A stretch of DNA of 63,455 bases, filler included, from Globobulimina sp. (lineage: Eukaryota): the NCBI GenBank assembly GCA_003354225.1. It is 13 parts of 13 records of this genome, joined end to end, with 100 filler letters (N's around TTAATTAATTAA, not from the genome) between each part and the next. Parts side by side here need not be neighbours in the genome. Positions count along the whole stretch, not along the records: positions 1 to 4,797 come from PIVH01000916.1; 12 more parts are not named here. The stretch is one strand, 5' to 3'. Below are positions 1 through 53,795 of this stretch, in pieces. A program made the position numbers and the translations under genes. The stretch's first letter is position 1, and the number at the start of each line of letters is the position of its first letter. The notes under the pieces are model-generated. The model saw only the letters and a list, made by a program, of their open reading frames with translations. It was not told where the DNA came from and searched no databases.

Positions 1-16
1 CCTGTCGTCACTCCAA

Positions 17-2353
17 ATGGCACAAGAATCAAATACAAATACAAAGACAGAAGTTGATTCAGGCGGCGTCGCCGAAGCAAAGAATAAATGCATTCATGTT
101 TCACACAGCTGTCGTATTCCAGACGACGAGAGATTAAAAGAATTAGCCACTTTTATTAAAAACCCAATTTGTTGCATCTCAAATTGTGATCAGACAGAAT
201 GTTGGTTATGTCTGCGTTGCCATGAATTATTTTGCAGTCGCTATGCCAATAAACATATGAATATCCATTACAGCCAAAGTGTGAATGAACCTCATTGTTT
301 AGCCATGGGTTTGAATGATTTGAGTTTTTGGTGTTTTAAATGTGATTCATATATTAATCATTTAACCATACAAAAAATATTTGAAATTTATGAGTTAGCG
401 CATATTGCCAAACATAATCAAAGTATTCCTCCACAATTATTGGAACAAACAAATTTTAACAACAACAATAATAATAATAAAAAAAATAACAACGACAGCA
501 ATGATGATCAGGAAATGGTAGAATATGATAAAAATAAAAACTATAATGTCAACATTGATATTTTGGATCATTCGATCGGTGATCATACGCATGACGAGAG
601 AATGAAACAAATTTCAGCTTCAGACTATAAATCTTGTATTGAATGGAATAATGATTCCAATCAACCCAACCTTGATCCCATATTATCCAATTTAAACCGT
701 CGGAGATTGTTTGTTGGCGCATTACAACAAAAACATAAAAACAAAAACTCAAATAATATATTTTCACCTTTCTCAAACTTTTCAGCTCGAAATGGTTTAA
801 CAGGCTATTCATTATTTGATCACATTTCCAGTTTATTAAAATTAGAATATATTAAGTTGAGTATTGACAATAATATTTTTTTAGATCGTTGTATTGGAAG
901 TATCTATGGAATGGGCATTGGTGATGCCACAGGAGCACCACTTGAATTTTTGCCATGTGTCAGCCAAAGAGGCCAATCATTTTTCAATTTGCATTCGAAG
1001 ACAAAGAAATGGCGCAATGAGAAGAATGCATTCGGTTTGAAACGTGGGCAATGGACTGATGATGCTTCGATGGGTTTATGTATGGCGGACAGTTTGCTCT
1101 TAAATGGTGAATATAACGGCAGTGATATTCGAGTCAGGTTTTGGAATTGGTGGAATAATGGATATAACAATGCATTTCGATTAGATTCAAGTGGCGGTAA
1201 TAGCTCATCGGTGGGTTTAGGCGGTAATATCAGTAAAAGTATTTATAGTATGAAGCACGGTGAGAAACCAACACCGATTTTCGAGACTCATAGCGACAAA
1301 GATGACTCTGGCAATGGCTCATTAATGCGGTTGGCGCCAATACCCGTATTTTTACATGCATGTGGCAGTGGTACTGGTGGTGTTGATGCACAATTAATGG
1401 ATCTTGCGATGGAGTATGCGAAGCAGTCAAGTTTTACGACCCATCCTGGATATATTGCTGCGGAAGCCTGCGCTTTGATGTCCTATATTATTATTCATGC
1501 CATTCATAGACAAGATAATGAATACGAGAACAATGTGAAAGTATTTTTAGAACATGTTACTGGCAAATATTCAAAACGAATTGAGGTTCAACATAATGAG
1601 TTGAGACATCTGTTAGAAAAAACCTTACAATCCCAGGAATTCAATGAGATTAAAGAAAAAGTAGAAAAACTTAGTTTGCAGAAGAAAAATAAGCATCAAA
1701 ACAATGAGGATTCGGAATGTAAACAACAGGACAAATATATTAAGATTGCATGGAGTAAAATTCAAATTAATTTAAACCATATTCATCGAAAGATAATCGC
1801 TTTAAAATATATGATGAAATTAATAAATTCGGCAGAAAGTGATGATTCGCGCGAGAGATGTTGGAATTGGAGATGTGTGTATGGTGAGTTAGGGATTGAT
1901 TTGACAATGAAAAATCGTGGTAGTAATTACAATGGTTATCCCAATACGCAGGGATATTTTGGTTCGTATTGTATGGATGGATTGGCAATGGGTCTACATT
2001 CATTGTATAATAGTCATTCCTTTGGTGATTCAATCATGAAAGCTGTCAATATGTTGGGCGACGCGGATAGCACCGGAAGCATTGCTGGACAATTAGCGGG
2101 CGCTTGGTATGGATTTAAAAGTGTATTTTATGATATGAATAAGGAATTATTTTTGTTTAAACAAATTGCTAAATGGGATGATTATGAATTTGGTATAAGA
2201 GCTATTTTATTATATTGTATCGGGAATAGATTTGCTGAAAAGGCAGCAAAACAAATTCAAGCAAAAAAGAATAATAATACTAATAATCAGCAGCAAAAAC
2301 AACAAGCGAATCAAAACGAGGATGATAGTAATAGTACAATAGTAAATGACTGA
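17..2353 (+). CDS. zf-UBP (HDAC6/BUZ-type ubiquitin-binding zinc finger) fused to ADP-ribosylglycohydrolase (ARH/DraG family)
   Basis: N-terminus CWLCLRCHELFCSRYANKHMNIHY..HCLAMGLNDLSFWCFKCDSYI matches zf-UBP. ARH motifs GMGIGDATGAPLEF, GQWTDDASM, GNGSLMRLAP, THP and GDADSTGSIAGQLAGAWYG follow. Intronless 778-aa ORF. Confidence 0.92.
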   Translation: MAQESNTNTKTEVDSGGVAEAKNKCIHVSHSCRIPDDERLKELATFIKNPICCISNCDQTECWLCLRCHELFCSRYANKHMNIHYSQSVNEPHCLAMGLNDLSFWCFKCDSYINHLTIQKIFEIYELAHIAKHNQSIPPQLLEQTNFNNNNNNNKKNNNDSNDDQEMVEYDKNKNYNVNIDILDHSIGDHTHDERMKQISASDYKSCIEWNNDSNQPNLDPILSNLNRRRLFVGALQQKHKNKNSNNIFSPFSNFSARNGLTGYSLFDHISSLLKLEYIKLSIDNNIFLDRCIGSIYGMGIGDATGAPLEFLPCVSQRGQSFFNLHSKTKKWRNEKNAFGLKRGQWTDDASMGLCMADSLLLNGEYNGSDIRVRFWNWWNNGYNNAFRLDSSGGNSSSVGLGGNISKSIYSMKHGEKPTPIFETHSDKDDSGNGSLMRLAPIPVFLHACGSGTGGVDAQLMDLAMEYAKQSSFTTHPGYIAAEACALMSYIIIHAIHRQDNEYENNVKVFLEHVTGKYSKRIEVQHNELRHLLEKTLQSQEFNEIKEKVEKLSLQKKNKHQNNEDSECKQQDKYIKIAWSKIQINLNHIHRKIIALKYMMKLINSAESDDSRERCWNWRCVYGELGIDLTMKNRGSNYNGYPNTQGYFGSYCMDGLAMGLHSLYNSHSFGDSIMKAVNMLGDADSTGSIAGQLAGAWYGFKSVFYDMNKELFLFKQIAKWDDYEFGIRAILLYCIGNRFAEKAAKQIQAKKNNNTNNQQQKQQANQNEDDSNSTIVND

Positions 2354-2689: not shown

Positions 2690-3727
2690 TTACTGTTTAT
2701 GACTTGCGGTAGTTTTATTCGGTTGACATCCTTGATTCGCATGCGTATCCGTATAGAATGCAATTTGATGGATGGTGTGTGAATATTCATATTGTGGATA
2801 TATCTGCGCTCTCAATATATATGATCCAGACGCTTTACACGAGTTAGACACATATTGAGTGAATTGCGATAAGGTTTTATTCGAAATATTTTGATTTAAA
2901 GTCACAGAAAATGGATAGTAATAATCATATGTTTCTTCATTTTGTAGTTCATGCCATGAGTTTGTAAATGACAATAAATAGATTTGCTGGCAAATATCTA
3001 TAGTTTTATTATCATGATTGTAGTGTTTATGTGTAGTTCTGTTAAAATATATGTCCACTTTCATAGATTCTAAGATAATCGGTAAATAATTTGGATTTGT
3101 AACATATAAATATCCAGTAATCGACATTTGAATATTAAGCTGTCCTCTTGTGGGAAACTGCAATTTTTGTACAGTGACTTCAATCCATGCATCAATGGCA
3201 CGGGGGATGAGAAAAAATGTTACAATGGCTACAAACGATAAATACGAGATTAAAAATAATAAATATTTCATACGCAATAGTTCAAACCATGAGGATGCAT
3301 TGTATTTTAGTCGCGAGTTTCTTGGCGCAAAATCTGTTTGCGGCAATTGACGCATTTTAGGACTGCTATTAGCATTTGGCGATAATGAATGTGACCTAAG
3401 CGATCTGTGTGATCTATGCGATGCATCGGACAATAATGAATGTGCTCCCGTTGCCGCTGACTGTTGAAATGAAAAATAATTATTTCCAGTTGAATTGGTT
3501 GAAACGTTGCTTGCATTTAACAGTACATATCCAAATTCACCACTTTTATTGAGATGAGAGAGGTCGTCAGATACTAATATCTGCCGTTGGCTGTCTTTTG
3601 TCTGAATTGTCTCGACTAGCAGCATGTCACTGATATCCTCTCCATCTGAAAAATCCTCATCTGTATGCGTTTCATTGTTCTCAGCTAAATGAGCGCTCAA
3701 TTCCTGAAAACTTGTCATGTTAGACAT
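2690..3727 (-). CDS. Type II membrane protein with LEA_2/TMEM106-like luminal domain
   Basis: Disordered N-terminus, one TM helix (YLLFLISYLSFVAIVTFFLIPR), then VTNPNYLPIILESMKVDIYF, typical of LEA_2/TMEM106. Confidence 0.55.
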   Translation of the reverse strand: MSNMTSFQELSAHLAENNETHTDEDFSDGEDISDMLLVETIQTKDSQRQILVSDDLSHLNKSGEFGYVLLNASNVSTNSTGNNYFSFQQSAATGAHSLLSDASHRSHRSLRSHSLSPNANSSPKMRQLPQTDFAPRNSRLKYNASSWFELLRMKYLLFLISYLSFVAIVTFFLIPRAIDAWIEVTVQKLQFPTRGQLNIQMSITGYLYVTNPNYLPIILESMKVDIYFNRTTHKHYNHDNKTIDICQQIYLLSFTNSWHELQNEETYDYYYPFSVTLNQNISNKTLSQFTQYVSNSCKASGSYILRAQIYPQYEYSHTIHQIAFYTDTHANQGCQPNKTTASHKQ

Positions 3728-6602: not shown

Positions 6603-8227
6603 TCATCTTTTTGTAGCGTTAACAGCAAATGAATGTATTTTATTTTTCATTTTTGTTTTCCATTTGTTTGGTGCTTTACTTATTTTCTCTTTAATATATG
6701 GCTCCACTTTGGTCTCATCACTTACATTAATCATCAACTGTTTCTTTAAAAACGTTTCCACCGTATTCCATTCTAAAAACGTGATTGCAATCTTGGCAAA
6801 AGATAAAATATCGGAATAATTTTCTCTCAACACTTTAAAAGCCATAAAACAACAATTTATAAAATTATGCCAATGCACATCTCCCATAATATATTTCAAA
6901 TCATTTGTAATTGAAAAAGAGGCCGCATCTAAACCCGATAATTTCTCACCTAAAATATATCCATAATCAATGTGAAACAAAACACCATCTTTTTTAATCA
7001 AAATATTATCCGAATGGCGATCTTTTATCCCCATTATATATGCACCAATGTATGAACCTACACATGATGCTATCAATTTATTTATCCATTTCTTATTTTT
7101 TTTAAATTTAGCATCATCAAAATGCTTTTTTATGTTTGTTAATGAGACACAATCATTAATGTACTCGATACATCCGAAATCTTCACAGATTGGCACACAT
7201 CGATAAGTAAATATTTTTATTGTTTTTGTATTATATTTTAACTTATTTGACGCCCAAATATCATTAAACAATCGGAACATTGTCAATATACTCGAATCCT
7301 TCCTAAATATATATATATGTAAAATAAAATAGTTAACGTTTCTGACAATGAATATATTGCATCACACCTTAAATCATCACCTTTTTTAAATATAGTTTTT
7401 GATGTTAAGTTTGCGGATTTATTATATAAACTTAATAACAATGGTTTTGAGTTTGAGTTAAATACCGATTCACATTGAATTGTTTTTAAATTGGTTTCAC
7501 CAGAAATTGGATCGCAAAAATTATTTGTACTCTCATCAACTATCGACACTTTAAATCCTTGTTTTACTGCAATTTCATTATTTGCACCATCGATACTTTG
7601 AGAAATGCAAAACATTTCAAATAATTCGACAATATTTGTTCCCGCATATTCAATCTTGTTAATTTTCGTACTTTTCTCAATGTCGGCTTGCAAAATACTT
7701 TTCTGCGCGGTGCTGAATCTAAAATGACTCGCATTGCTTGTATATATTTTATGTAATATTCGTTTTTGCCGTTCGTTCCTTATTCTTTTTTTATCAATTT
7801 TGTCATCAGTACTTTCATATTCTTTTTCTTCATCTTCAAGTATTATATTTATATCTTTTACAATATATTGATAAATGGGATGCGAATTCCATAAAATCTT
7901 TACATAATTTTCATTGAAATATGCATTTAAAAAACAATGGAATGACTGGGATAAAAATATATTGTTTTGACATCGTTTTAGAAATATTTTCAACAATTCA
8001 TCTCGATAACATTGCGTACCATATGGTATTTGTGCTAATATTGCATTTATCAATGGCATAAAATTTGAAATTTCCTCTTGGTCTCCATGGGTTAGCGCAT
8101 ATTTAATGTCTCCGTTTCTTATGGCTCTTAAAAATGTTTTATGTCTACGTTTGCTTTTTTTGATATCATCTACACTCTCACTATCGCCACAACAAAATGT
8201 GTATAGGTGAGACACATTAGTGCCCAT
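6603..8227 (-). CDS. Phosphatidylinositol 3-kinase family protein, compact; intron 7303-7367
   Basis: FNSNSKPLLL, spliced IFKKGDDLRKD, GCIEYI, YIMGIKDRHSDNILI and HIDYGYILG. Likely start MGTNVSHLYTFCCG at 8227. Confidence 0.88.
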
Positions 8228-8296
8228 CCAACTGTCAGATTTTACTTTAAGTGGAGTAAAAAACCTACAGTATTTATTATTTATGTATTTTGCATC

Positions 8297-9693
8297 ATGG
8301 GCGCGACTACCAAGCGATATAGGACCCAATACCTTGTTATCCTCATTGTCTTTTTTATTGGGTGGTGGATATTTTGGTTTCAATTCAATCAGTCATTGCA
8401 ATCAACACCGTATCCAAAATTAATTCCAACCATCAACAAAGCTGAAACTGAGCAAGACAACATCGGTAATATTACATTATTGATGCATGAAATCAAATAC
8501 CTACAAACACGTAACACACGCATCGAAAACGAGAAAGCACAGCTTCGACAAGAGATTAATAAACAGCCAGTACTGCAGCATCCAAACCATGATACAGCTT
8601 TGTTATTGGATGAAATCGATGAGTTAAAAAAGACAATATGGGACTTACAAGATGCTGATCAACAAAATAAAATGCAAAATAACGAACTCAACCAACAAAT
8701 TAAATCCTTAACAACTGACAAAACCGATGATATAAACTATTATTTTCTGTATGGTTTTTGTAATGATAACACGCACCAACTCAATAAAGAAGTAATTGTC
8801 ATAATGGATGGTATAAAAAACTACGTATCCACAAAATACAATGATTGGATCGTTTTAAGTGTATCAATTCAACAGTTTTTAATGGACACCAACTCACAAA
8901 ATTATACACACAAAAAATTAATGAGATTCACAAAATCTGCAGTCCCAAATATAAATATAAAACGAGATAAATTCCAATGGGTATTTGAGCCACATTGCGC
9001 CGGATTTCACACCGATTTAAAAGCATATTATGATGATAAATTATTATATTTACCACTGCCACCGGACATATATGAATATCATAACGTTTCTACAACGAAT
9101 AAGTTCGGATTTATTGATGACAATGACAGATATTCAGACAATGATCATATTGTCAACATAAACTATCATAAATATGACAATTATTACTTAAATATTTCGC
9201 ATCCATATCGTGTGTTGAATGTATGGCAAAATGATAGTTATTATAGTTTCTGCCATAAAGACGAGAGATATCCATTGTCGTTGCGCAATAACCGCCCATT
9301 TTTGATGGAAATCGGTGGTGAGGCGTTTAGTGCATGGTCGGTACGGAGAAAATATGCTTGCTTTGATATAGATTTTCATATTCAAAGAAGTAGATCGTGG
9401 CCGCGTAGAGGATGCATTGTCGCGTTGTTTATCCAAGGCATTATACAAAGAGATGTACCATATAATCTACGCAGAAAATATCAAAGTTATCAAGATTTAA
9501 TGAATTATCACAGGTTAATTATCAATGATAATAATGCGCAAACGAGAGAGCTGTATATTGATGAAATCATGAAACAAAAAAAGAGATTTTGCAGTTTTAC
9601 AGTGAAAACCTTGTTTATGTGGGGTTATTACTTGAGTGAAGCTTTAGTGCGACATGTCGTTCATGCTATGATCTCCAGACAGTATAAGTACTG
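8297..9693 (+). CDS. Type II Golgi glycosyltransferase, possibly GT10 alpha-1,3-fucosyltransferase-like (3' truncated)
   Basis: Signal anchor YLVILIVFFIGWWIFWF, coiled-coil stem, then GGEA and KKRFCSFTV resembling the GT10 K-F-C-x-F motif. Confidence 0.5.
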
Positions 9694-9793
9694 NNNNNNN
9701 NNNNNNNNNNNNNNNNNNNNNNNNNNNNNNNNNNNNNTTAATTAATTAANNNNNNNNNNNNNNNNNNNNNNNNNNNNNNNNNNNNNNNNNNNN

Positions 9794-19952: not shown

Positions 19953-22859
19953 ATGAAAATATCAACATCTATCAACCATAATGATAATGGCTATTTTTTA
20001 AAATTGAATGGTCAAAAAGAAGAAAACATGGGAAAGAGACAAAATAATAAATGGTGTTGCTGTCATATTAAAATTCCAATCACTGGAAGAGTGCGTAGCA
20101 GATCGTTAACAGCACTGTTAATTGTATTTATTATCGATATGTTATCAAATATATATTTGTTATTTGCAACACGATATGGCCAATTTCACCAAGACACATC
20201 AGATACAGCTTTATTATGTTTGTTGCGGTTTTCATTATTAATTACATTGACTCTTATTGCTGTTCGTAAAGGAGTTCCAAAAGAATTATGGCTTCAACCA
20301 AACAATTCCAAACTTGCAGTGCCATCCGATGCAAAATTAGAAATATTAATTGAATTAAATGACAAAGCACAAAACAATCCGAACAAATTAGACGAATCAG
20401 CAGAGTCATCCGAAGAAGAATGCATTGAAGGAATCGAAGATAATCGTAAATTGCAACCACAATTTGATGACAAAGAAGAAATGGAAGATTATAAAAAACG
20501 ACGTAAAAGAGCAACTATTTATAAATATTGTATTTTATTCTTTATGTTTTTTTTATGTACAATATTCCAGTCATATATGGGCGTTAAATCAATAATATTT
20601 GTATTTGATGGGAAATATATCATATTTGAAGCAATCTCGTTTGGTGTAAGTATATTATGCATAAATATTGAAATATTTTTATTAAAAGACTTTATTGAGA
20701 ATGCAACCGATGACGGTGATAATATATTGATTAAATCGTTACATCCACACCATTTACAATATAAATCTGGTAAACAATATCATTGCGATATTTGTAGGAA
20801 ACCATCCGATAAAACCTATCGATGCATGGCCTGTTCTTATGATGTTTGTACTGATTGTTACAAAAAAGAGAAAAAAAGATTGAAAAAAAAAAGTGTTGAT
20901 GATGACGATGAAAAACAAGAAAAGATGAATTCGACGAGTTATTTAAGACGGAGTGTAAAACTATGCGCTCCGCATTGGCATATAATTGTTTCGGGGAGCA
21001 TCTTTTTGGTGATTTGCTGTATTTTACGCTTATTATTGCCTAGCATTCAAGGCAGAGTATTTGATAATATTATTGCTGGGAATAAATCTGCATTTATATG
21101 GATTATAAAATTGTATCTAATCATTTCTATATTGAACGGTGTATTTAATAGTTTGCGCGATATGATGTTTCAATTTTTTTGGCAGCGATTAACTGCGGGA
21201 ATACGCAAACAAATGTTTTCCAATATTACGGTTCAAGACATTACCTTTTTTGATAATACCTCCACCGGCGAATTACTGTCGAGATTGGGAAATGATGTCT
21301 GGAGAATGACCGATCCAATACATAATGTTTTGCGATCATCATTGTCAAATAGTTTATTATTATGTGGTGGCCTGATAATGTGTTTTGTGACATCATGGCG
21401 ATTATCAATGTTGGCATTCACCACATTAGCTCCAATTTTATATTTAACAACGCAATATTCCAAATGGAGCAGAAATATATGGGGTTCTATTTGGGGCTCT
21501 TTTGCCAAATCTACGTCTGTGGCACAACAGACATTTGCAAATATTAGGACTGTCCGCGCATTTGGTACAGAATTGAAAGAAATTGGAAAATATAATAAAT
21601 CCGTTGATGAAATGTTACGAAGCGGCATAATTGTCAATGTGGGCGGTATCATTGTTTCGTTTGCCACAAACTATTTAGATTTAGGCGCAAGTGTATTATT
21701 ATTGTATTTTGGTGGAATGGCTTTATTTGATATACAATTTGGTAATGACAACCAAACAGAATTAACAATTGGTAAACTTATTACATTTCAACTTTACTGG
21801 AATATGATGACAACCGCATACAAAGGATTACAAAACGTATTAACAGCTTTTACCAAAGGTTTAAGTGCGGGAGAAAGGGTATTGTTAATATTGGATAGAA
21901 TGAGTAAGCATAGCACCAATTTATATGATGGGAAAAAATGTGAATTAGATGGCGAAATATATATTGATAATGTCAATTTTACCTATGAATCAAGAGCAGA
22001 AGAACCAGTTTTAAAAGGGATTGATTTACATATTCTTCCATCGCAAGTTATTGCAATTGTGGGGAAATCGGGTGGCGGCAAAACAACTTTAATCCATTTG
22101 TTAATGCGGTTTTATGATATTGATATTTCGAATGGCGGCATATATTATAATAAAGAAAAAATAGCATTGAATGATTTAAATTTAACACAGTTTCGACAGC
22201 AAATCGGTTTCGTTGGACAAGAGACAGAAACATTTGATGCCTCTGTCCGGGATAATATTATCTATGGCTGTATCGACGGAAACGGCATGGATCGAGAAGT
22301 GAGTCTGCAAGAAATTATCCATTATTCAAAATTAGCAAATTGTCATGAATTTGTTTCAAAATTTGAAGAAAAATATGAAACGAAAGTTGGAGAAAGAGGG
22401 ATTAAATTAAGTGGCGGACAGAAGCAGAGGTTGGCCATCGCCCGAATGCTAATTAAAAGGCCAAAGATATTGTTATTAGATGAAGCAACGTCAAATTTGG
22501 ACACAGAAAGTGAAGCATTGGTTCAATCAGCAATTGACAAAACGATTTGGTTTAATAATGAAAAAGAAAAAGAAGAAAAATATGAAGGTGACGATAATGA
22601 TAATGAGAAAGAATTTGAGTTTAAAGCAAATGCAGTAATATTGATTGCTCATCGTTTGTCAACAGTTATTAATGCGGATAAAATTGCAGTTATTGATGAT
22701 GGCAAGATTGTAGAATTAGGGCGTCACGAACAATTATTAAAAATTGAGAATGGCGTTTATAAGAAATTGGTTCAAAGACAAATTCAAAAACAAAAAAACC
22801 AATTGAATCTACAGAAACAAGATACAAATAACGATTGTATTGACAATTTATTTGATTGA
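19953..22859 (+). CDS. ABCB (TAP/ABCB9/ABCB10-like) half-transporter with extra N-terminal TM region and C1/ZZ-like zinc finger
   Basis: QDITFFD..TGELLSRL, Walker A GKSGGGKTT, LSGGQKQRLAIAR, LLLDEATSNLD and IAHRLSTV. Finger LHPHHL..YHCDIC..YRCMACSYDVCTDCY lies before the core TMD. Confidence 0.93.
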   Translation: MKISTSINHNDNGYFLKLNGQKEENMGKRQNNKWCCCHIKIPITGRVRSRSLTALLIVFIIDMLSNIYLLFATRYGQFHQDTSDTALLCLLRFSLLITLTLIAVRKGVPKELWLQPNNSKLAVPSDAKLEILIELNDKAQNNPNKLDESAESSEEECIEGIEDNRKLQPQFDDKEEMEDYKKRRKRATIYKYCILFFMFFLCTIFQSYMGVKSIIFVFDGKYIIFEAISFGVSILCINIEIFLLKDFIENATDDGDNILIKSLHPHHLQYKSGKQYHCDICRKPSDKTYRCMACSYDVCTDCYKKEKKRLKKKSVDDDDEKQEKMNSTSYLRRSVKLCAPHWHIIVSGSIFLVICCILRLLLPSIQGRVFDNIIAGNKSAFIWIIKLYLIISILNGVFNSLRDMMFQFFWQRLTAGIRKQMFSNITVQDITFFDNTSTGELLSRLGNDVWRMTDPIHNVLRSSLSNSLLLCGGLIMCFVTSWRLSMLAFTTLAPILYLTTQYSKWSRNIWGSIWGSFAKSTSVAQQTFANIRTVRAFGTELKEIGKYNKSVDEMLRSGIIVNVGGIIVSFATNYLDLGASVLLLYFGGMALFDIQFGNDNQTELTIGKLITFQLYWNMMTTAYKGLQNVLTAFTKGLSAGERVLLILDRMSKHSTNLYDGKKCELDGEIYIDNVNFTYESRAEEPVLKGIDLHILPSQVIAIVGKSGGGKTTLIHLLMRFYDIDISNGGIYYNKEKIALNDLNLTQFRQQIGFVGQETETFDASVRDNIIYGCIDGNGMDREVSLQEIIHYSKLANCHEFVSKFEEKYETKVGERGIKLSGGQKQRLAIARMLIKRPKILLLDEATSNLDTESEALVQSAIDKTIWFNNEKEKEEKYEGDDNDNEKEFEFKANAVILIAHRLSTVINADKIAVIDDGKIVELGRHEQLLKIENGVYKKLVQRQIQKQKNQLNLQKQDTNNDCIDNLFD

Positions 22860-25954: not shown

Positions 25955-28460
25955 TCACTCTTTGTTGCTTGTTTTGCATTTACAAAGTCTTAAATTAATT
26001 TGTCTCTGCTCTCTTAACAAAGATTTGGTGTACTCCATATTGGTAAAAACAACAGGTGGTAGATCATTGTTTGTATTCTTGAATTGCTCCGTAAATTCCG
26101 ATCCATTTTGTTTGAATGATTCTATATCATATTCTCTGGTTAAACAGTGTTCAAACTTAAAATAATCCAATCTATCAATCAAAGGAACCATCATTCCATC
26201 TCGTTCAAGATTTGGTATTTTATATCCATTCCATTCATTTGCTTGATTTACTTCAATGTAAACAAAATATGTTAATATTTTATTCTCTTTTTTCAATTTA
26301 TAAATATTAAAAGTATTTGGGTCCATTACTTGTTGAATGACCAGTTGTATATCATTGTTATTATGATGTTGCAAATGAGTAACAACAGTAAACTCATTTG
26401 CATTTAATAGACAACAATCATATTTTCCATTTCCTGTCATATTGTTAATAGTTTCAATCACAAATTCAATCAACGGCTTGTCATTTAATATTAATTCAGC
26501 TGTAATTTCTTTATTTTGTGGAATATCACAAAAACAAAATCCTTTTGGCGCATCTATTTCATTGCAACTTCTATTCACTGAAATTATTTCTCTTATTATA
26601 TTTTTATACATTCTTTTTTTATGTGTATTGATTGGCAGAGACTCTTTTAACCAGTCAATCTCTTCTGCATTATTACTGTCATAATGGTCAGTAAAAAGTA
26701 ATGGGATTTGTTTGAAAAATACATGAAAATCATAATGGGTGACAAGTCGTTGTTGATTAATCCTTTGAAATGAATTGAAAAGATTGCCATTATCAAGTTA
26801 AAAAACGTCAGGTAGATTTTCATGGAAACCTTTGTCAATTCATTCCATGCACAAAAGAGTGAAAAAAATACCTCAATATCTCCATTTGATACTTGCTTAA
26901 TAAGTTGCGAGGAACAAATAAGATTGAAACAGGATTTGTAACCTCCCATCTTCCAAATTGTGTGGATGTCGAAGTGCCAACTAATGCTCCATGATCACCA
27001 ATTATATGAAATACAGTATTACTAAAATCAAAATACTCAACCAATTGCCGATAATATCGATCAATCACATACGAAAACCACCCATCCGCGCGATGATTGT
27101 CTTCCATATGAACCACCATAAAATACGGCAACGGTTTGTCATAATTATTATGCACATTATTCACTGTGTCAGTGACAAAATGAACCCATGCTTGCGTGCT
27201 CCAATACTGTATGTACTTACAATTGAATCCAAACACATTATGTGTCAAATAAAATGTATATTCCATAGTTTGATCCCATTGTTGCGATGTATAAATATTT
27301 GAATCATTCTTTGTGTCCCAACCAGAATGTATTACCGGTAAATATTCCTCCATTGCTGGTATAATATAACCCAATTTATGATAATATTCGAATAAATCTA
27401 ATTGTGATTTCATCCCATTGCCGCCTTGAACCATTGCCATTAAATTGACGCCCGTCCCCCATCCAACTGTACTGTGTCGAAAAAATTCAAACAATTCGTA
27501 TGAAATACCTTCACTTTTCTGCACATTTTGCAAGTAATTATCTGTGGATGTACTGCCACGATGGAAATTGGATCGCGATGTCGAATCCACAACAAATATA
27601 ATCACATTTGGCATGACATGTCTCTTAAATTTATGGCTTTCATATTTCTCTAACTGTTGTTGATATATTTTGGGTGCTCGGATTTTTAGTGGCAACACAG
27701 AAACATAATGATTATAAAAAATAAGGCCGAATGGCGACGAGGCATTGCAAGCCAACCAGATGGTTTGTGTTAAATTCTTTATTTCCAATTTAATCAATGA
27801 TGCATTCATTATATAATCAGAATTGTCATTAATTTCAGTCCATAAATTATCGGCATTGATTTTTTCTAAATTTCCACGCAAAATACTTTTGCTTTGATAT
27901 TGGAATATATTCATACATTTAAATTTATCTCTGTTTATCATAATATATCTTTCATATTTACTGATTTCTAGCAAATCGGACCATTTTTTGTGATCATTGC
28001 AACGATGTATTTTGTCATAAAATGGGTCTTTATGTTGTACGGCACTTTGAGATAATTCAAATCCGAAAATATTTGGAACAACGCAAGTTTCTGAAAATCC
28101 GATATTTGATAATTTAGTGTCGCCAATTCCTTTTATCCATTGTTCAAAAGATAATGGATTGCTCATTGCTTCATAATTTAATATAGTTTCTGTTTTATTG
28201 TTTAATGTATTTTCTAGCTGTTTGAGTTGTTTTGTGTAGTTTGTGATCAATAATTTATATTTGCTCATTTCATTTTCGTGTTTCTTATTTAATTTAGTGA
28301 TGTTTGTGGATTCAATTAAAAGGTTTGATGATGTGGGTAAATACTTGCAATCAATGGATGATATTGATCGTAGTATAAAACATTCTAACACGAGACACAA
28401 AAGTAAAACAATGGTAAAAGTAAATAAGCATTGTTTGTTAGGTTTGCCTAACACTGCCAT
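25955..28460 (-). CDS. DUF229 (sulfatase/alkaline-phosphatase superfamily) type II membrane protein; intron 26763-26871
   Basis: Signal anchor, PNVIIFVVDSTSRSNFHR, IIGDHG and GRWEVTNP. The spliced continuation NQQRLVTHYD...RSCNEIDAPKGFCFC joins ORF 25955-26611 in frame. Confidence 0.8.
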
Positions 28461-28740
28461 GGTTTTCTTTAGTCGCACTTTTTATGCTCGAGAATATGGC
28501 TATTTCCACAGAAACGGTACAGTTTGGAGATTCAAATCTATTCAAATCTATACAAATCTATACTTGTTTCTGTTGACTATTATTCCGTTTGTGTTGCCTC
28601 TGTTCCCTGTTCGTTTCTGCGTAGTGGAATTGTGGGAAGAACCATATTAAGAATTGCGATTTACATTTTTCTAGAAGTTATAGAACTAAAAATACAAAGC
28701 AAATTTGACTAAAAATACAAGCAAAATATAACATTGATAA

Positions 28741-29457: not shown

Positions 29458-32400
29458 TTAATTCCTACCCAGGAGTCTACGTCGCTTGTCGACAATTTTA
29501 TTATTGCTTATTTCATTTGATGATAACTTTAATAATTGATCTTTTTTCATGCAAATTAATGCAAAACAATAAACTATTAACACCGCAGCAGCGATAGAAA
29601 CAACAATCAGCGCAATGGACAACAACTGCATCATATTATCATTAATAAAACATTGACAGATCGGGATCGTAGTTTGTGTGTTGATTTCATCACATTTAAA
29701 TTGCTTAATACCACCAAATGCGTTACAATTTTGTATACATTGTATTTTATTACACACACAAAACGAAGGTCCATCATACCCGCAACATGACTGCCGATTA
29801 TTGCCATTTGATGGCGGACTATAAACACTGTTGCACGGTGATGATGGTATTTGGTGAGTTAACTTAAAAAAATCTACTTTAACCGAATAAGCTATCGGAT
29901 TGCCATTGATTTCTGTTAGAATATAATCGATGGATAATGTCGGTGTGTAACTAAATATAAATGAAGAATCATCAGAAGCGGATACAATGGATGATGATGA
30001 TATTTGTGTTGGTGTAATACGTATGTTTCTTAATGAAAATCGACCTGAAAATTTGTTATTTCCCTTTGATTGAGCCGTGCGAACTGTTTCTTTGCTGCCA
30101 AAAACAGGAATTTTAATAGTCTTTACAATATCTGGCAGGCTGTATTCCTTCTTACCAAAAGTAAAACATTTCCGAGTTGATAATGCTGAGAATTCGTCGG
30201 CGTTCCACTGTCGTACTCCTAAATCATTTGCGTTTTGTATACTTTGAAATGAAATGGTCAGCTTATTTTCAATATTTTCTCGTGATATAATTTCATTATT
30301 TGCCACAGATTCATCGCCTGCGATATTTGTGATATATATTTCTTTTATTGCTGACGGTAAAACATAATAAGTTTGTGTCGCATATCCAAGTGATGCACTG
30401 CCAACAGTACAGGTCAAGCAATGCCATATATCATCGCTTACTGACTTAAAATTTAAATTGTACATAGCAATGGATTGGATCAGAAAAGCTCGATTATTGA
30501 CTTGAAAATATTTCCCTTTAAAATATAATGGATATTCAATATTTTGATCAATTTCACCACTGGAAATACCTGCGATTTTTATATAAATATGCGATTTTCC
30601 TCCATAAATTGGAATAATTGATTTCCGAAGCTTTGCTTTGTATTTATTATCTGGAATTTCTTTATAATTTATTAATTGGCTGTATATATCAAAATATTTA
30701 ATACCATGCTTGACATCACTGCCTCCGCACTGTTTGTTTGTTGTGATAATATCAATGCGGTCACATTCCTGATTACATTTAGTAGCATCTGCCTTTTTTG
30801 TGGTGTCTGGTATGTTTACCAAACACGCACATTTATTCCCATCAAAGAATGCAAAATATTTAAATTTACCTTTTTCTTCATTTCTACAATAATTGGAACA
30901 TGAAATGACGGATATTTTATCATTATCATTAAACCGTATGTTTGAACTTTGCAGTGATAAGTCGTAACAGCCAAAATAATATGAATTTGAATATAGTTTT
31001 ATTGCAAATATTGATATCAAATCGCAACTTGGATCATTGTTTACATTCTCTTTGCATTCACTTTTTGCCCACAAATGCGATGGATACTTAAATATATTTG
31101 TATTATTCAGAATGATTTGTCTTCTCGCAATTTTTTTATGTGCATTGCAATACATATCATCCACAAACGCATTTTTTGGTGTCCGATCAGTACAATAACA
31201 CGCACCATAATAAAATGCAAAATATTTATAATCATAACATGCTTCTTGACATAAATCCACTTTATCATCGATTTGATGATCACTGTAATATTTATGAATT
31301 GCTTTATCTTTATCAGTCTCAATTAATTTCATATCTTCTTCTTTATACAATACAAAACAGCCCAAATATTGCTCACTTTCCAATATTTCCTCTTTTACTT
31401 CAATCACAACATTTGACCTCATTGTTAGATCCATATTATACGGCCATTCCACACTTTTTGTTGTGATGTTGGTGGAAATTGTATCAGCTCCAATTGTCAA
31501 TGTACAAATATTAGAACTAACAGAAGATGCTACCGTTTGTTGTGTTAAATTGAATCTAATGACTGCCACTCCTTTATTCCTACCGCTATCATCCACGTTG
31601 AATGTCCCTAAACCTAAAACACTAAAATATTGATAAAAGTTACTGAAATACACCGCTTGTACACCACCGTTTGCATTCGAAATGGTAACAATACAATGCG
31701 CATTCGACAATATCCATTCATCGCTTTTATAGCCAAACGCCATGGTCTGATGCATCGCCATCAAATATGCCAACTTTAACTGCTGGTTATGTATCTCATA
31801 TGGCGACGGTTGCTTTGGTTTCTTATCCCCAACAATTTTGGAAAACGAATTAATTATCTCCTGTTTCTCCTTAATAACCAAAGATAAGCCACCAAACAAT
31901 TGATTAGATGCAGTAGACATTGTATCCAACAAAGTTTGAATTTCATTTTCTATCAAAGAGCCACCGCCAAACCCAAACGTCCCAAATACTTTAGGAAGCC
32001 AATTTTTATCAATCAATTTCCCAGCTGGCACTGCTGCTGTTTCGTCAATATCCCCATTTGTGTCCCAGCTGAAATACATTTCAGTATTAATTTCCGACTG
32101 TGCAGGATTTGAATTATGTAAATAGACTTGAAAACCACATTCGATGGCTTGCACTTTTAGAGGTTTGTTGGGTGGGTCTGGGAACCGCCCAGAATATAAT
32201 GTTATTTCTGACAAAGCTGACAAATCAAGACCTACTGAGACATCAATATCATTACTTCCACCTTCATTATCTGCATAATCTAAGTTTTCAAAGGCAGTCA
32301 CATCGTTAATATTTGTGCCGACATTGTTGATGTCCAATTTTGGATCGTTTTTCCAGTAACACGAGTTTTCAGTTTGCTCCCACATGCACTCCCAATTTGC

Positions 32401-32937
32401 CTTATTGTTCTGGCAAATGGTTTCTTCGTCGAACGTAGGACATACCATTAGCGGAGTCCGTGATGATTCATCCAAACTACCAAACGATGATAATCCACTC
32501 TGTGAATCTGAACATAGTGATGTTGACGAAGAAGAGGTACCGTCAGATTCAAAAACTAAGGAATAATGTAAGTACATATCGCCATCAATTGCCGCGGGCT
32601 TACTACTAATTTGTGTCATATCAATTGGATAAACCCAACCATAAATATAGATACACATTGTACCTTCAAATTTAAGAGTATTGATTGGTGGCATGGAGAT
32701 ACACTGTTTATAGCCTAAAATCATGGTTGAACCAATGGGTGGAGAGCCAAATGATCTCATTGGTAATGCTTTGCATTCTCCAGTCTCTAATCTATTTGCA
32801 ATCTCTTCTGCAGTGAATGGTTCGATTTTGGGATCATTTCGAGAGAATGCGCTGCAAATCGAATTACATTCAAGGGTTTGACTGTGTGCTAATTTTGTTA
32901 TTACAGTTGTTGATAATACCAATGCAATTGCAAGCAT
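29458..32937 (-). CDS. Type I membrane protein with two WSC domains
   Basis: Signal peptide; YLGCF...CQEACYDYKYFAFYYGACYC and YFGCY...CSNYC...YFAFFDGNKCAC...CNQEC...CGG; Cys-rich stalk and a C-terminal TM helix. Confidence 0.85.
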   Translation of the reverse strand: MLAIALVLSTTVITKLAHSQTLECNSICSAFSRNDPKIEPFTAEEIANRLETGECKALPMRSFGSPPIGSTMILGYKQCISMPPINTLKFEGTMCIYIYGWVYPIDMTQISSKPAAIDGDMYLHYSLVFESDGTSSSSTSLCSDSQSGLSSFGSLDESSRTPLMVCPTFDEETICQNNKANWECMWEQTENSCYWKNDPKLDINNVGTNINDVTAFENLDYADNEGGSNDIDVSVGLDLSALSEITLYSGRFPDPPNKPLKVQAIECGFQVYLHNSNPAQSEINTEMYFSWDTNGDIDETAAVPAGKLIDKNWLPKVFGTFGFGGGSLIENEIQTLLDTMSTASNQLFGGLSLVIKEKQEIINSFSKIVGDKKPKQPSPYEIHNQQLKLAYLMAMHQTMAFGYKSDEWILSNAHCIVTISNANGGVQAVYFSNFYQYFSVLGLGTFNVDDSGRNKGVAVIRFNLTQQTVASSVSSNICTLTIGADTISTNITTKSVEWPYNMDLTMRSNVVIEVKEEILESEQYLGCFVLYKEEDMKLIETDKDKAIHKYYSDHQIDDKVDLCQEACYDYKYFAFYYGACYCTDRTPKNAFVDDMYCNAHKKIARRQIILNNTNIFKYPSHLWAKSECKENVNNDPSCDLISIFAIKLYSNSYYFGCYDLSLQSSNIRFNDNDKISVISCSNYCRNEEKGKFKYFAFFDGNKCACLVNIPDTTKKADATKCNQECDRIDIITTNKQCGGSDVKHGIKYFDIYSQLINYKEIPDNKYKAKLRKSIIPIYGGKSHIYIKIAGISSGEIDQNIEYPLYFKGKYFQVNNRAFLIQSIAMYNLNFKSVSDDIWHCLTCTVGSASLGYATQTYYVLPSAIKEIYITNIAGDESVANNEIISRENIENKLTISFQSIQNANDLGVRQWNADEFSALSTRKCFTFGKKEYSLPDIVKTIKIPVFGSKETVRTAQSKGNNKFSGRFSLRNIRITPTQISSSSIVSASDDSSFIFSYTPTLSIDYILTEINGNPIAYSVKVDFFKLTHQIPSSPCNSVYSPPSNGNNRQSCCGYDGPSFCVCNKIQCIQNCNAFGGIKQFKCDEINTQTTIPICQCFINDNMMQLLSIALIVVSIAAAVLIVYCFALICMKKDQLLKLSSNEISNNKIVDKRRRLLGRN

Positions 32938-34080: not shown

Positions 34081-34253
34081 GGACAAACCACTGCAACAAT
34101 ATATTTTTCCAAGAAAGATGGACTGGATATCAGTAAAGTAAAAGTCATGGCAANNNNNNNNNNNNNNNNNNNNNNNNNNNNNNNNNNNNNNNNNNNNTTA
34201 ATTAATTAANNNNNNNNNNNNNNNNNNNNNNNNNNNNNNNNNNNNNNNNNNNN

Positions 34254-34393
34254 CTTTCATAATGGATATGTTTGATAGATTAGCAAAAGAAGCAGCGAAT
34301 GCGGTGAAATATTCAAATAAATCTACGATGGATGCCAGAGCCATAAAATGTGAATTCGCAAAGCATTGCCAGATGGAGGCACAGAAAGCATTG
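34254..34393 (+). pseudogene. Histone H2B-like fragment with internal deletion
   Basis: SFIMDMFDRLAKEAANAVKYSNKSTMDARAIKC-EFAKHCQMEAQKAL aligns to H2B helices 2 to C but lacks the AVRLxLPG segment. Confidence 0.7.
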
Positions 34394-37300: not shown

Positions 37301-38346
37301 CGATTCAAGCAATATATAGATATAAAAAGATCAGTCAATTCCTCCTCAAACATCAAAGCGGAGTCACACCAATTCTTAAATAACAAATAAACATCGGATT
37401 CATCATCGGGATTGCTATGGATATTAACATCTTTATATGCAAAGCTTAAAACGTGGCGAAGTCCAATCCAGCCACCTTTACCATAAATATAGTCCAAAAG
37501 TAACATGTAATCAATAATACGCGGATTCAAAGCATCGTTGACATTCATAACAACAGTATCGGAGTCGCCATGGTCAGATCGCATTTTATAATCATTTTCA
37601 TCCTCATCCGGCGCTGAAAAATACTCATCATTTTCAATAAAGATATCAGTGCCAATCTTAGCACTCAAAGCCAATTTCTCCCGTTTAATTTTATCGATAT
37701 ACTGATTATTCAACACTGCTCCTTCCAACATTATCTTTTTATACCATCGGCGATTTGGGGAACGTTTAGAGCCAGTGAGGAAAGCAAAACCTTTGCAAAC
37801 AGGACTAATATGTGATATGACATCACATTCTAATGGTAAATGATAATAAGAGTGCTGCCTGGCATCACAAATAAAACTAATACACCATTTGCCATATCGG
37901 CGAATAATTTGTTGTGTCGCTGCGATCTGGACTTGAAATCGTACGCGATTTGGTAATGCTTGCGTTTGTTCAGTTTGTACATGATATTTCTGCTCAGTTT
38001 GTACATGATCGACATTTGTGTTTGATTGTTGTTGCTGTATGCTTTGTTCTTGTGGAGTGTTTACTTGTTCTTGTGGAGTGTTTACCTGTTGTTGGTCAGT
38101 TTGTTTTTGGTCAGTTTGTTTTTGTTTTTTGGCAGTTTGTTTTCGTGTTGTTGCACTTTGTTTATTTTTATTTCGTTGCTGATATGCAAACGCATATGTT
38201 TCATCACATGTAGTACAGGTCCATGTGGTGGCAGTTGTATGCATATCACCTTCATAGTCAGCACTACAAACTTCACAGAAAGGTCGTACTAAAATTCTAC
38301 CAGTGACAGGATCAACGGGTATAATGGAACGGCGCATATGAGTCAT
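34254..38346 (-). CDS. Large intronless orphan protein (>1360 aa) with N- and C-terminal zinc ribbons; possibly from a mobile element or virus
   Basis: CEVC...WTCTTC near the N-terminus and VCDVCG...WICNTCTYVH (RanBP2-like) near the C-terminus; short tandem peptide repeats; no catalytic motif recognised. Confidence 0.6.
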
Positions 38347-53588: not shown

Positions 53589-53795
53589 TGGTTTCTTGAG
53601 ATAAAATAAGATTGGGTTTCATCAATAATTTTGGTCATAGCACCAATACTTCCTTTTGTTTTTCGTTGTTGAGTGTTTCAAAAAACGGACAAGGGNNNNN
53701 NNNNNNNNNNNNNNNNNNNNNNNNNNNNNNNNNNNNNNNTTAATTAATTAANNNNNNNNNNNNNNNNNNNNNNNNNNNNNNNNNNNNNNNNNNNN

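What the first reader, a model, noticed from the sequence alone, without database searches (positions are those of the whole stretch)
17..2353. Ubiquitin-binding zinc finger fused to an ADP-ribosylhydrolase: candidate eraser linking ubiquitin and ADP-ribosylation
Seen: one uninterrupted ORF with a zf-UBP at about aa 26-113, an Asn-rich linker, and a full ARH/DraG domain keeping the Mg-binding TDD and DADS motifs plus a coiled-coil insert. Known: the HDAC6/USP5 zf-UBP binds the free C-terminal Gly-Gly of unanchored ubiquitin through an R-Y pair and aromatic residues; here SRY, the W of CWLC and WCFKCDSY are retained. ADP-ribosylated ubiquitin and Ub-ADPr hybrids are made by Legionella SidE, CteC and DELTEX/PARP enzymes. 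Inference: the protein may strip ADP-ribose from free ubiquitin or ubiquitin chains, for example against bacterial effectors in a phagotrophic host. I do not recall this architecture being characterised.
Basis: partly seen in the sequence, partly recalled or inferred. Interest (0 to 1): 0.82.

Follow-up and report, generated by a model that had tools for sequence, protein, structure and literature searches.

The report
Ubiquitin-tail reader fused to ADP-ribosylhydrolase
A protist gene joins a zinc finger built to grip the free tail of ubiquitin to an enzyme that removes ADP-ribose from proteins; the combination has been catalogued but never tested, and it could be a cell's own tool for cleaning ADP-ribose off ubiquitin.

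Summary
Window 17-2353 (+) is one uninterrupted 778-aa ORF. It carries a zf-UBP (49.5 bits) and a full-length ADP-ribosylglycohydrolase domain (159 bits). All six ubiquitin-tail pocket positions align with HDAC6, one as Y->F. P0001 matches the family consensus at 100 of 101 conserved columns.

The join is not an assembly artefact. Contigs from separate studies bridge it, and foraminiferal transcriptome proteins share the layout.

The fusion recurs. Of 258 proteins examined, 15 carry it, from Foraminifera, Amoebozoa and Euglenozoa. It occurs in both domain orders, and in variants with a UBA-like cassette or a sirtuin.

The hydrolase is closest to bacterial Tri1, the Thermus enzyme and DraG, not to ARH1 or ARH3.

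The architecture was already noted in print for Capsaspora in 2014. My searches found no characterisation.

Function remains inferred. I put "erases ADP-ribose from unanchored ubiquitin" at about 0.4 and "ubiquitin only guides or regulates it" at about 0.35. The complex prediction was not run by the tool.

The parts
17..2353 (+). Whole gene: a 778-aa ORF with no intron, stop codon included.
   Evidence: A 2040-nt contig of run X1 covers 1..2007 with 1 difference, and no joint lies inside the ORF except one from a paralogue-like contig.
77..436 (+). zf-UBP fold, aa 21-140 (Pfam core aa 53-115 = nt 173-361). Candidate zinc ligands: C25, H27, C53, C57, C65, C68, C73, H80, H84, H93, C106, C109. 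Ubiquitin-tail pocket: W63, R75, Y76, W105, F107, Y112.
   Evidence: Pfam. HDAC6 ZnF-UBP E 1e-13 with aligned pocket residues. jackhmmer envelope. Conservation across 16 fusions. pLDDT 79-93. The role of each residue is recalled from HDAC6/USP5 structures, not taken from a call.
452..556 (+). Asn-rich flexible linker, aa 146-180.
   Evidence: Sequence. pLDDT below 50 at aa 150-179. Not conserved outside the foraminiferal clade.
569..856 (+). Structured segment before the hydrolase core, aa ~185-280. Its last ~25 residues are conserved across the ARH subfamily.
   Evidence: pLDDT about 95 for aa 190-240 and about 96 from aa 260. Family consensus before the GDxxG motif.
857..2299 (+). ADP-ribosylglycohydrolase (ARH/DraG-fold) domain, aa 281-761 (Pfam aa 294-702).
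   Evidence: Foldseek top hits Tri1 6drh_E (E 2.2e-12), Thermus 2cwc and DraG 2woe. P0001 agrees at 100 of 101 conserved columns.
1055..1063 (+). First metal/catalytic motif, T347-D348-D349, within GQWTDDASMG.
   Evidence: Aligned to the TDD of Tri1, the Thermus ARH and DraG. Nearly invariant in 114 sequences.
1535..1828 (+). Lineage-specific helical insert, aa 507-604, inside the ARH domain.
   Evidence: Three long helices in the AF2 model. Long form only in P0001, P0002 and P0003.
2060..2071 (+). Second metal motif, D682-A683-D684-S685, within GDADSTGS.
   Evidence: Aligned to the DADS/DADT of Tri1, Thermus ARH and DraG. D682 and D684 nearly invariant.
2186..2350 (+). C-terminal long helix (aa 724-770) and Q/N-rich tail.
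   Evidence: (helix 724-770). A related contig of run X8 has a 9-nt in-frame deletion at 2272.

Best explanation
The gene encodes an active, metal-dependent ADP-ribosylhydrolase tethered by a flexible Asn-rich linker to a zf-UBP.

Proposed mechanism:
1. The zf-UBP pocket clamps the free C-terminal ...RLRGG tail of unanchored ubiquitin, as monomer or chain.
2. That holds ubiquitin next to the hydrolase.
3. The hydrolase cuts ADP-ribose off ubiquitin itself. The linkage is most likely N-linked arginine, the Arg42 type, whose site lies at the base of the tail.
4. The free ubiquitin pool becomes usable for conjugation again.

Shown here:
- Both domains and their key residues are present.
- The gene is genuine.
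- The fusion recurs.
- The hydrolase is closest to arginine-specific bacterial ARHs.

Inferred:
- Ubiquitin binding.
- Catalytic activity.
- Linkage type.
- That ubiquitin is the substrate.

My odds are about 0.7 that it is a ubiquitin-tail-guided active hydrolase, and about 0.4 that ubiquitin itself is the substrate.
For: 1. Pocket. W63, R75, Y76, W105 and Y112 are identical to HDAC6, and F107 replaces a Tyr. All 12 Cys/His candidate ligands are present.

2. Hydrolase. The Pfam match is full length. The TDD and DADS motifs align with Tri1, Thermus ARH and DraG. P0001 carries the consensus residue at 100 of 101 columns that are at least 90% conserved among 114 relatives. The AF2 model has pLDDT 87.6 and pTM 0.82, and its best PDB matches are ARH folds.

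3. Nearest solved relatives, by profile bits: Tri1 177, Thermus 2cwc 167, DraG 117, ARH3 88, ARH1 33. NCBIfam names Tri1 an ADP-ribosylarginine hydrolase. DraG reverses arginine ADP-ribosylation (PMC11668277, passage).

4. Recurrence.
- 15 of 258 proteins from the two searches carry a zf-UBP: 9 N-terminal and 6 C-terminal of the ARH.
- Named sources are Foraminifera, Amoebozoa and Euglenozoa.
- Capsaspora is reported in print.
- A UBA-like + zf-UBP cassette occurs on either side of the ARH.
- zf-UBP ties with ankyrin repeats as the commonest accessory domain, at 3 of the 60 further long members scanned.

5. Precedent. The bacterial macrodomain MavL needs its own ubiquitin-binding site to de-ADP-ribosylate Arg42-ADPr-ubiquitin. 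ARH1 is only weakly active on that substrate. [quoted passage not shown]

6. The gene is under purifying selection. Of the 40 listed differences to roughly 94-95% identical contigs, 28 are at codon position 3. All 4 indels are multiples of 3.
Against: - No binding, activity or substrate was measured.
- Pocket conservation among relatives is patchy. Only 8 of 16 aligned fusions keep all six positions. Four have R-H instead of R-Y, one has R-W, and three are degenerate (I read the W63 column by eye, because the script printed the neighbouring column).
- A natural relative, P0229, inserts a SIRT2/3-like sirtuin between the finger and the ARH. That recalls HDAC6, where bound ubiquitin is not the substrate.
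- Other members of the same ARH subfamily carry ankyrin, TPR or WWE modules. The accessory domains therefore look like interchangeable address tags.
- The protein does not reach the equivalog cut-offs of Tri1 (111 against 490 bits) or DraG (81 against 337 bits). Arginine specificity is therefore only a lean.
- The position aligned to the Asp of Tri1's FDIGNT stretch is an invariant Ser (S398) in this family. Whether that Asp is the DraG-specific catalytic Asp could not be settled here.
- No ubiquitin-ADP-ribosylating writer was looked for in this organism, because no genome is held.
Confidence: 0.4

Rival explanations
1. Ubiquitin is the address or the switch, not the substrate. The zf-UBP senses unanchored ubiquitin chains. 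It either recruits the hydrolase to where they accumulate or activates it allosterically. The ARH then removes ADP-ribose from other proteins, or hydrolyses O-acetyl-ADP-ribose.
For: - HDAC6 (deacetylase + ZnF-UBP) is the best sequence match of the finger. In HDAC6 the bound ubiquitin is not the substrate, and in USP5 tail binding activates catalysis (both recalled).
- P0229 is zf-UBP + SIRT2/3-like sirtuin + ARH. It comes from a 21-member cluster, of which at least 4 are full-length.
- Sirtuins make O-acetyl-ADP-ribose, which ARH3 hydrolyses (PMC11668277, passage).
- Ankyrin, TPR and WWE fusions in the same subfamily suggest swappable targeting modules.
- The fusion is spread over free-living protists of several supergroups, which fits a housekeeping regulatory role.
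Against: - A long disordered linker gives no obvious allosteric coupling.
- The UBA-like + zf-UBP cassette resembles the multi-site recognition USP5 uses for unanchored chains that it then processes (the USP5 layout is recalled).
- The ARH is closer to Arg-specific Tri1 and DraG than to the O-glycosidic ARH3.
Confidence: 0.35
2. The finger reads something other than ubiquitin. It could be a ubiquitin-like modifier or another protein ending in a free Gly-Gly, or the finger could be a plain protein-protein module. The enzyme would then be directed to a non-ubiquitin partner.
For: - Half of the fusions have altered pocket residues.
- Several human zf-UBPs are said not to bind ubiquitin (recalled).
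- F107 replaces the Tyr of HDAC6.
Against: - In this protein and its foraminiferal orthologues the pocket is essentially complete.
- Two lineages carry a UBA-like segment next to the finger, which points to ubiquitin.
Confidence: 0.12
3. The ARH domain is a catalytically dead ADP-ribose binder, as ARH2 is said to be (recalled). The protein would then be a dual reader of ubiquitin and ADP-ribose.
For: No activity was measured. S398 sits where Tri1 has an Asp.
Against: - P0001 has the consensus residue at 100 of 101 conserved family columns, including TDD and DxDS.
- S398 is invariant across the 6 aligned fusions, so it is a family trait and not a decay.
Confidence: 0.05
4. The ORF is an assembly chimera of two separate genes.
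For: None found. The window starts only 16 nt before the ATG, so the promoter side is not visible.
Against: - A contig of run X1 covers nt 1-2007 with 1 difference.
- A roughly 95% identical contig of run X6, from another study, covers 36-1121 across the join.
- Transcript-derived proteins of Ammonia, Bolivina and Nonionella have the same order at 55-62% identity to P0001 (52% and 55% by BLASTP for P0002 and P0003; names).
Confidence: 0.02

Closest known systems
Capsaspora owczarzaki 'ARH3-like' protein with zf-UBP (Perina et al. 2014, DNA Repair, PMC4245714, section 3.2 and Fig. 3 legend; passage read)
   Same: It has the same two Pfam domains in one protein, catalogued in a survey of poly(ADP-ribosyl)ation systems.
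   Different: - It is only listed as a domain architecture, with no binding, activity or substrate data.
- I could not fetch that sequence. Its domain order, its pocket state and whether it belongs to this ARH subfamily are untested.
- The paper calls such proteins ARH3-like. Here the profile scores higher with Tri1 and DraG than with ARH3.
- Supplementary tables of that paper could not be read.
Tri1, the ARH-fold immunity protein of the Tre1 ADP-ribosyltransferase toxin (PDB 6dre/6drh; NCBIfam NF041672 'ADP-ribosylarginine hydrolase Tri1')
   Same: It is the best solved relative by sequence (E 1e-19), by profile (177 bits) and by fold (E 2.2e-12, TM 0.66 on the target). The TDD and DADS motifs are shared.
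   Different: - The NCBIfam score is 111 bits against a cut-off of 490, so this is not an equivalog.
- Sequence identity is about 17-18% in the fold alignment.
- Tri1 is bacterial, has no zf-UBP and has no helical insert.
HDAC6 and USP5/USP16 ZnF-UBP domains
   Same: They are the best sequence matches of the finger: HDAC6 E 1e-13 and USP16 E 4e-11. The pocket residues align. The logic of an enzyme plus a reader of unanchored ubiquitin is the same.
   Different: The attached enzyme is an ADP-ribosylhydrolase, not a deacetylase or a deubiquitinase. F107 stands where HDAC6 has Tyr, and S74 where it has Gly.
MavL, the ubiquitin ADP-ribosylhydrolase of a bacterial pathogen (PMC10951314 and PMC11668277; passages)
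   Same: The proposed working principle matches: a ubiquitin-binding site combined with an arginine-directed ADP-ribosylhydrolase that regenerates ubiquitin.
   Different: - MavL is a metal-independent macrodomain (DUF4804 class).
- It binds the ubiquitin body weakly (Kd 88 uM).
- It is a secreted bacterial effector.
- The protein here is a metal-type ARH fold with a tail-specific finger, and it is encoded by the eukaryote. Pfam finds no macrodomain in it.
Human ARH1 and ARH3
   Same: They share the ARH superfamily fold.
   Different: - ARH1 is distant, at 33 bits and matching only the C-terminal part. ARH3 scores 88 bits, against 177 for Tri1.
- Neither carries a ubiquitin reader.
- ARH1 acts only weakly on ADPr-ubiquitin (PMC10951314).

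Membership tests
zf-UBP (Pfam PF02148) | Profile match above the curated cut-off. | tested here: met
   49.5 bits against 22.7, E 5.2e-13, profile positions 1-60 of 63.
zf-UBP (Pfam PF02148) | Twelve Cys/His ligands for three zinc ions (the number and roles are recalled from HDAC6/USP5 structures). | tested here: met
   C25, H27, C53, C57, C65, C68, C73, H80, H84, H93, C106 and C109 are present. They lie in Cys/His columns shared by most of the 16 fusions. Spacing at C53-x3-C57 is one longer than the CxxC seen in P0115 and P0229. Metal content was not measured.
Ubiquitin-binding subclass of zf-UBP (HDAC6/USP5 type) | Pocket for the free Gly-Gly carboxylate: a Trp, an Arg-Tyr pair, a second Trp and two Tyr. 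| tested here: met
   W63, R75-Y76, W105 and Y112 are identical to HDAC6, and F107 stands for a Tyr. The same holds in P0002, P0003 and P0259, which have Tyr at position 107.
Ubiquitin-binding subclass of zf-UBP (HDAC6/USP5 type) | Measured binding of unanchored ubiquitin that depends on the free C-terminus. | not testable with these tools
   This needs protein work. The one complex-prediction job was not folded by the tool.
ADP-ribosylglycohydrolase / ARH-DraG superfamily (Pfam PF03747) | Full-length profile match and ARH fold. | tested here: met
   159.2 bits against 26.2, profile positions 1-283 of 287. AF2 pLDDT 87.6. At least 73 PDB matches with E <= 0.001, and the 30 listed rows are all ARH-fold entries.
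ADP-ribosylglycohydrolase / ARH-DraG superfamily (Pfam PF03747) | Acidic metal-binding motifs: [ST]-D-D near the N-terminus and D-x-D-[ST] near the C-terminus. | tested here: met
   T347-D348-D349 and D682-A-D684-S685 align to the same motifs of Tri1, Thermus ARH and DraG. They are nearly invariant in 114 relatives.
ADP-ribosylglycohydrolase / ARH-DraG superfamily (Pfam PF03747) | Metal-dependent hydrolysis of an ADP-ribosyl linkage. | not testable with these tools
   An enzyme assay is needed.
Tri1 equivalog (NCBIfam NF041672) | Score above the equivalog cut-off. | tested here: not met
   111 bits against a cut-off of 490. It is the closest relative but not a member.
DraG equivalog (TIGR02662) | Score above the equivalog cut-off. 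| tested here: not met
   81.1 bits against 337.05.
DraG-type mechanism | DraG-specific catalytic aspartate (D97; mentioned in PMC11668277, and in the title of PDB 2woe). | tested here: inconclusive
   Pairwise alignments with DraG stop just before that region. Against Tri1, the Asp of FDIGNT falls opposite the invariant S398. Equating that Asp with D97 is recalled, not shown.
ARH3 orthologue | Closest to ARH3 among solved ARHs. | tested here: not met
   Profile scores: ARH3 82-88 bits, Tri1 177, Thermus ARH 167, DraG 117.
MavL / DUF4804 ubiquitin ADP-ribosylhydrolases | Macrodomain fold. | tested here: not met
   No macrodomain family among the Pfam matches at E <= 1. The catalytic domain is ARH fold. 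It may work like MavL but is not a member.

The most novel reading that the evidence does not exclude
Eukaryotes own a dedicated ARH-fold ubiquitin de-ADP-ribosylase. It recognises the free ubiquitin pool by its unconjugated tail and strips ADP-ribose from it. It has been assembled at least twice, in both domain orders, in phagotrophic protists of several supergroups. It would be the host-side counterpart of MavL, and a natural counter to bacterial enzymes that poison ubiquitin by ADP-ribosylation.
Probability: 0.3. Interest if true: 0.8.

Novelty: new variant of a known kind. Interest (0 to 1): 0.55.

Why it matters
The passages I read state two gaps in the field:
- No host enzyme is known that efficiently reverses Arg42-ADP-ribosyl-ubiquitin (PMC10951314).
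- Thr66-ADP-ribosyl-ubiquitin has no known eraser at all (PMC11668277).

This family offers a concrete candidate for either gap. It combines an intact ubiquitin-tail reader with an intact Tri1/DraG-like hydrolase, and it recurs across distant protists in both domain orders. It can be tested with ordinary biochemistry.

If ubiquitin turns out to be only the address, the family would still be a new example of HDAC6-style ubiquitin-guided enzyme targeting, and it would link unanchored ubiquitin to ADP-ribose signalling.

The claim is tempered in two ways. The architecture has been visible in domain databases and in one 2014 survey, and nothing functional is shown here.

Tried and rejected
- Own-genome search for ubiquitin: no genome is held for the window.
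- RNA evidence: no RNA holder is listed for the stretch. Runs X6 to X8 are only guessed to be RNA. Transcription in this organism is therefore not shown.
- Complex prediction of P0001 with a ubiquitin-like protein from a giant-virus bin: the tool did not fold it and the job was counted.
- Word-based search with the finger alone (aa 20-145): it found only the 2 closest orthologues among 33 candidates.
- Search among longer proteins (1363-3890 aa): nothing at E <= 1e-10. This is weak evidence, as the tool itself says.
- Earlier findings of the scan: none by place or by words.
- Mapping the DraG-specific Asp: not resolved.
- ARH-domain tree of 249 rows (FastTree): the zf-UBP label needs 14 changes. 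Its clustering is no better than shuffled labels, with 358 and 360 of 500 shuffles as low. Many rows are fragments that may have lost a finger. I therefore claim only two or more arrangements (N- and C-terminal), not a number of gains.
- Paralogue in the window: none by tblastn.
- zf-UBP next to viral ARH genes: 0 hits among the ORFs of the 82 stored loci, including the 80 ARH ORFs.
- Assembly chimera: rejected.
- DELTEX-type Ub-ADPr ester hybrids as the finger's ligand: set aside, because the pocket needs a free Gly76 carboxylate (recalled knowledge).
- Literature searches for a characterisation:
  - 'zf-UBP' + 'ADP-ribosylglycohydrolase': 0 papers.
  - 'zf-UBP' + 'ADP-ribos': 7 papers, of which only Perina 2014 is relevant.
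  - 'ZnF-UBP' + 'ADP-ribos': 28 papers. Of the 20 listed, none is on an ARH fusion by title or abstract.
  - Searches likewise found nothing.
  - Subscription-only papers and supplements were not searchable.
Full report
**Observation**

Window 17..2353 (+) is a single 778-aa ORF without stops. Pfam finds two domains:
- zf-UBP, aa 53-115, E 5.2e-13, 49.5 bits against a cut-off of 22.7.
- ADP-ribosylglycohydrolase, full length, aa 294-702, profile positions 1-283 of 287, E 2.3e-46, 159 bits.

The window begins 16 nt before the ATG. Transcript-derived homologues P0002 and P0003 start at the same aligned position, so the ATG at 17 is the likely start.

The window has about 30-43% G+C and many long ORFs. 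No prokaryote genome is held for it. The best homologues are foraminiferal. I infer a foraminifer-like protist, and that is inference only.

**The gene is real**

Logan contigs from separate studies cover the junction:
- Run X1 has a 2040-nt contig on nt 1-2007 with one difference.
- Run X6, from another organism label and study, has a 1142-nt contig on nt 36-1121 at about 95% identity.
- Run X8 covers nt 1015-2357 at about 94% identity.

All 4 indels against these relatives are multiples of three. Of the 40 listed substitutions, 28 fall on codon position 3; a further 84 differences were not shown by the tool.

None of these runs is on record as RNA. However, the Ammonia, Bolivina and Nonionella proteins with the same layout come from transcriptome collections. 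The exact protein is not in the 15-billion-protein collection.

**The finger**

The best solved relatives are the HDAC6 ZnF-UBP (E 1e-13) and the USP16 ZnF-UBP. In the HDAC6 alignment:
- W63, R75-Y76, W105 and Y112 are identical.
- F107 stands for a Tyr, and S74 for a Gly.

That these residues form the pocket for the free Gly-Gly carboxylate of ubiquitin is recalled from the HDAC6 and USP5 structures, not taken from a call. Twelve Cys/His candidates for three zinc sites are present.

**The hydrolase**

- T347-D348-D349 and D682-A-D684-S685 align with the same motifs of Tri1, a Thermus ARH and DraG.
- Against an alignment of 114 relatives, P0001 carries the consensus residue at 100 of 101 columns conserved at 90% or more. 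The one exception is S672 for Ala.
- AF2 with that alignment gives pLDDT 87.6 and pTM 0.82. Disorder is limited to aa 1-20, 150-179, 249-254 and the last four residues.
- The insert is three long helices at aa 507-604.
- Foldseek's best PDB matches are Tri1 (E 2.2e-12), the Thermus ARH, DraG and then ARH3.
- The family profile ranks, in bits: Tri1 177, Thermus 167, DraG 117, MJ1187 104, Lmo0067 89, ARH3 88, ARH1 33.
- The equivalog cut-offs of Tri1 and DraG are not reached. It is a relative of those families, not a member.

**How common is the fusion?**

- Word-based search: 6 of the 120 listed hits carry both Pfam domains.
- Full scan of 1.84 billion representatives: 5723 hits at E <= 0.001, of which 150 were listed.
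- Among all 258 proteins from these two searches, query included, an iterated local search finds a zf-UBP in 15. Nine are N-terminal of the ARH: P0001, P0002, P0003, P0020, P0072, P0115, P0184, P0229 and P0235. Six are C-terminal: P0090, P0126, P0162, P0187, P0198 and P0246.
- Pfam confirms 13 of the 15 individually above the cut-off. P0072 is confirmed only by the precomputed label. P0246 scores 17.8 bits, below the cut-off.

Named sources:
- Ammonia sp., Bolivina argentea and Nonionella stella (Foraminifera).
- Paramoeba atlantica (Amoebozoa).
- Diplonema japonicum, Artemidia motanka and Apiculatamorpha spiralis (Euglenozoa).

Variants:
- P0115 has a UBA-like segment before the finger (Pfam UBA_7, 24.2 bits, below the cut-off of 27). 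The same UBA-like + finger cassette lies after the ARH in the P0090 cluster.
- P0229 places a SIRT2/3-like sirtuin between the finger and the ARH.

Among 60 further long family members, zf-UBP occurs in 3, ankyrin in 3, TPR in 2 and WWE in 1.

A FastTree of 249 ARH domains scatters the fusions, needing 14 changes, which is no better than shuffled labels. Many rows are fragments, so I conclude only that there are at least two arrangements.

The pocket is complete in 8 of 16 aligned fingers, including the window's. The others have R-H (4), R-W (1) or are degenerate (3).

**What is in print**

Perina et al. 2014 state that ARH3 homologues of an amoeba, a filasterean and a sponge carry zf-RanBP, zf-UBP and WD40 domains respectively. 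Their Fig. 3 legend names the zf-UBP in Capsaspora owczarzaki (PMC4245714, passages). No other paper in the library joins these terms in a relevant way.

From other passages I read:
- The known ubiquitin ADP-ribosylhydrolase is the bacterial macrodomain MavL. Thr66-ADPr-ubiquitin has no known eraser (PMC11668277).
- MavL has its own ubiquitin-binding site. ARH1 is only weakly active on ADPr-ubiquitin. The authors speak of an absence of host enzymes reversing the modification (PMC10951314).
- DELTEX-type ADPr-Ub hybrids and their RNF114-type readers are reviewed in PMC12687431 (passages).
- PMC9503650 and PMC7050489 (passages) mention no such fusion.

Supplements were closed. Perina's tables may list more such proteins.

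**Mechanism**

Shown:
- An intact tail-reading finger.
- A disordered tether.
- An intact Tri1/DraG-like hydrolase.
- Recurrence of the pairing in both orders, with a second ubiquitin-binding-like module in two lineages.

Inferred: the finger docks unanchored ubiquitin, and the hydrolase acts on ADP-ribose carried by that ubiquitin, most likely on arginine (confidence 0.4).

The main rival (0.35) is that ubiquitin is only the address or the switch, as recalled for HDAC6 and USP5. The sirtuin-containing relative and the swappable ankyrin, TPR and WWE modules favour this rival.

Minor rivals:
- A non-ubiquitin ligand (0.12).
- A dead hydrolase acting as a reader (0.05).
- An assembly chimera (0.02).

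**Verdict**

The architecture has been catalogued since 2014 but, as far as my searches reach, has never been characterised. I rate it a new variant of a known kind, with interest 0.55.

The one computational test of binding open to me was not run by the tool. The question therefore rests on residue conservation and on domain-fusion logic.

Noticed in passing
P0229 (810 aa; cluster of 21 members from metagenomes): One protein carries zf-UBP (aa 31-87), a SIRT2/3-like SIR2 domain (aa ~133-348) and an ARH (aa 484-785). This is a deacylase plus ubiquitin-tail reader, as in HDAC6, with an ADP-ribose hydrolase added.
   Followed up: partly
P0115 aa 1-60 and P0090 aa 465-523: The same UBA-like + zf-UBP cassette lies before the ARH in Paramoeba atlantica and after the ARH in an unnamed metagenome cluster. 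The cassette seems to move as a unit.
   Followed up: partly
L001 3001-3957 and L002 3001-4065 (giant-virus bins): Giant-virus bins encode ARH proteins of 471 and 487 aa that are 39-41% identical to the window's ARH domain. In total, 169 of 252 candidate viral stretches encode a relative. No zf-UBP hit turned up among the ORFs of the stored loci, including the 80 ARH ORFs.
   Followed up: partly
L081 1-774 (same giant-virus bin as L002): An ORF with EATNV pentapeptide repeats, then a ubiquitin-like domain (Pfam ubiquitin, 91.3 bits) ending in LRLRGG, followed by about 130 further residues.
   Followed up: no
window 1046-1081, 1139-1179, 1964-2000: Other contigs of runs X1 and X2 match only these 36-41-nt stretches, which encode conserved ARH motifs (aa 344-355, 375-388, 650-661), and then diverge. 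They are probably paralogous ARH genes in the same samples. No paralogue lies in the window itself.
   Followed up: partly
window 19953-22856 (+): A 968-aa ABC transporter (ABC_membrane + ABC_tran) with a weak C1-like zinc-finger match at aa 263-302 (23.7 bits, below the cut-off of 26).
   Followed up: no
window 61458-63383 (-), 29461-32937 (-), 26838-28478 (-): A two-HKD phospholipase D-like protein, a 1159-aa WSC-domain protein and a DUF229 protein.
   Followed up: no
window 34201-38346 (-), 39143-43390 (+), 48866-51316 (-), 53751-57218 (-), 2693-3727 (-), 8207-9742 (+): Six ORFs of 345-1416 aa have no Pfam match at E <= 0.001. G+C rises to 0.41-0.43 at 16-18 kb and 40-44 kb, against about 0.30-0.35 in most of the rest of the window.
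   Followed up: no
window 30, 532, 731, 2272 (relative to contigs of runs X6 and X8): Contigs about 94-95% identical differ by in-frame indels of 6, 9, 6 and 9 nt. This points to a close relative or a diverged allele under purifying selection.
   Followed up: partly
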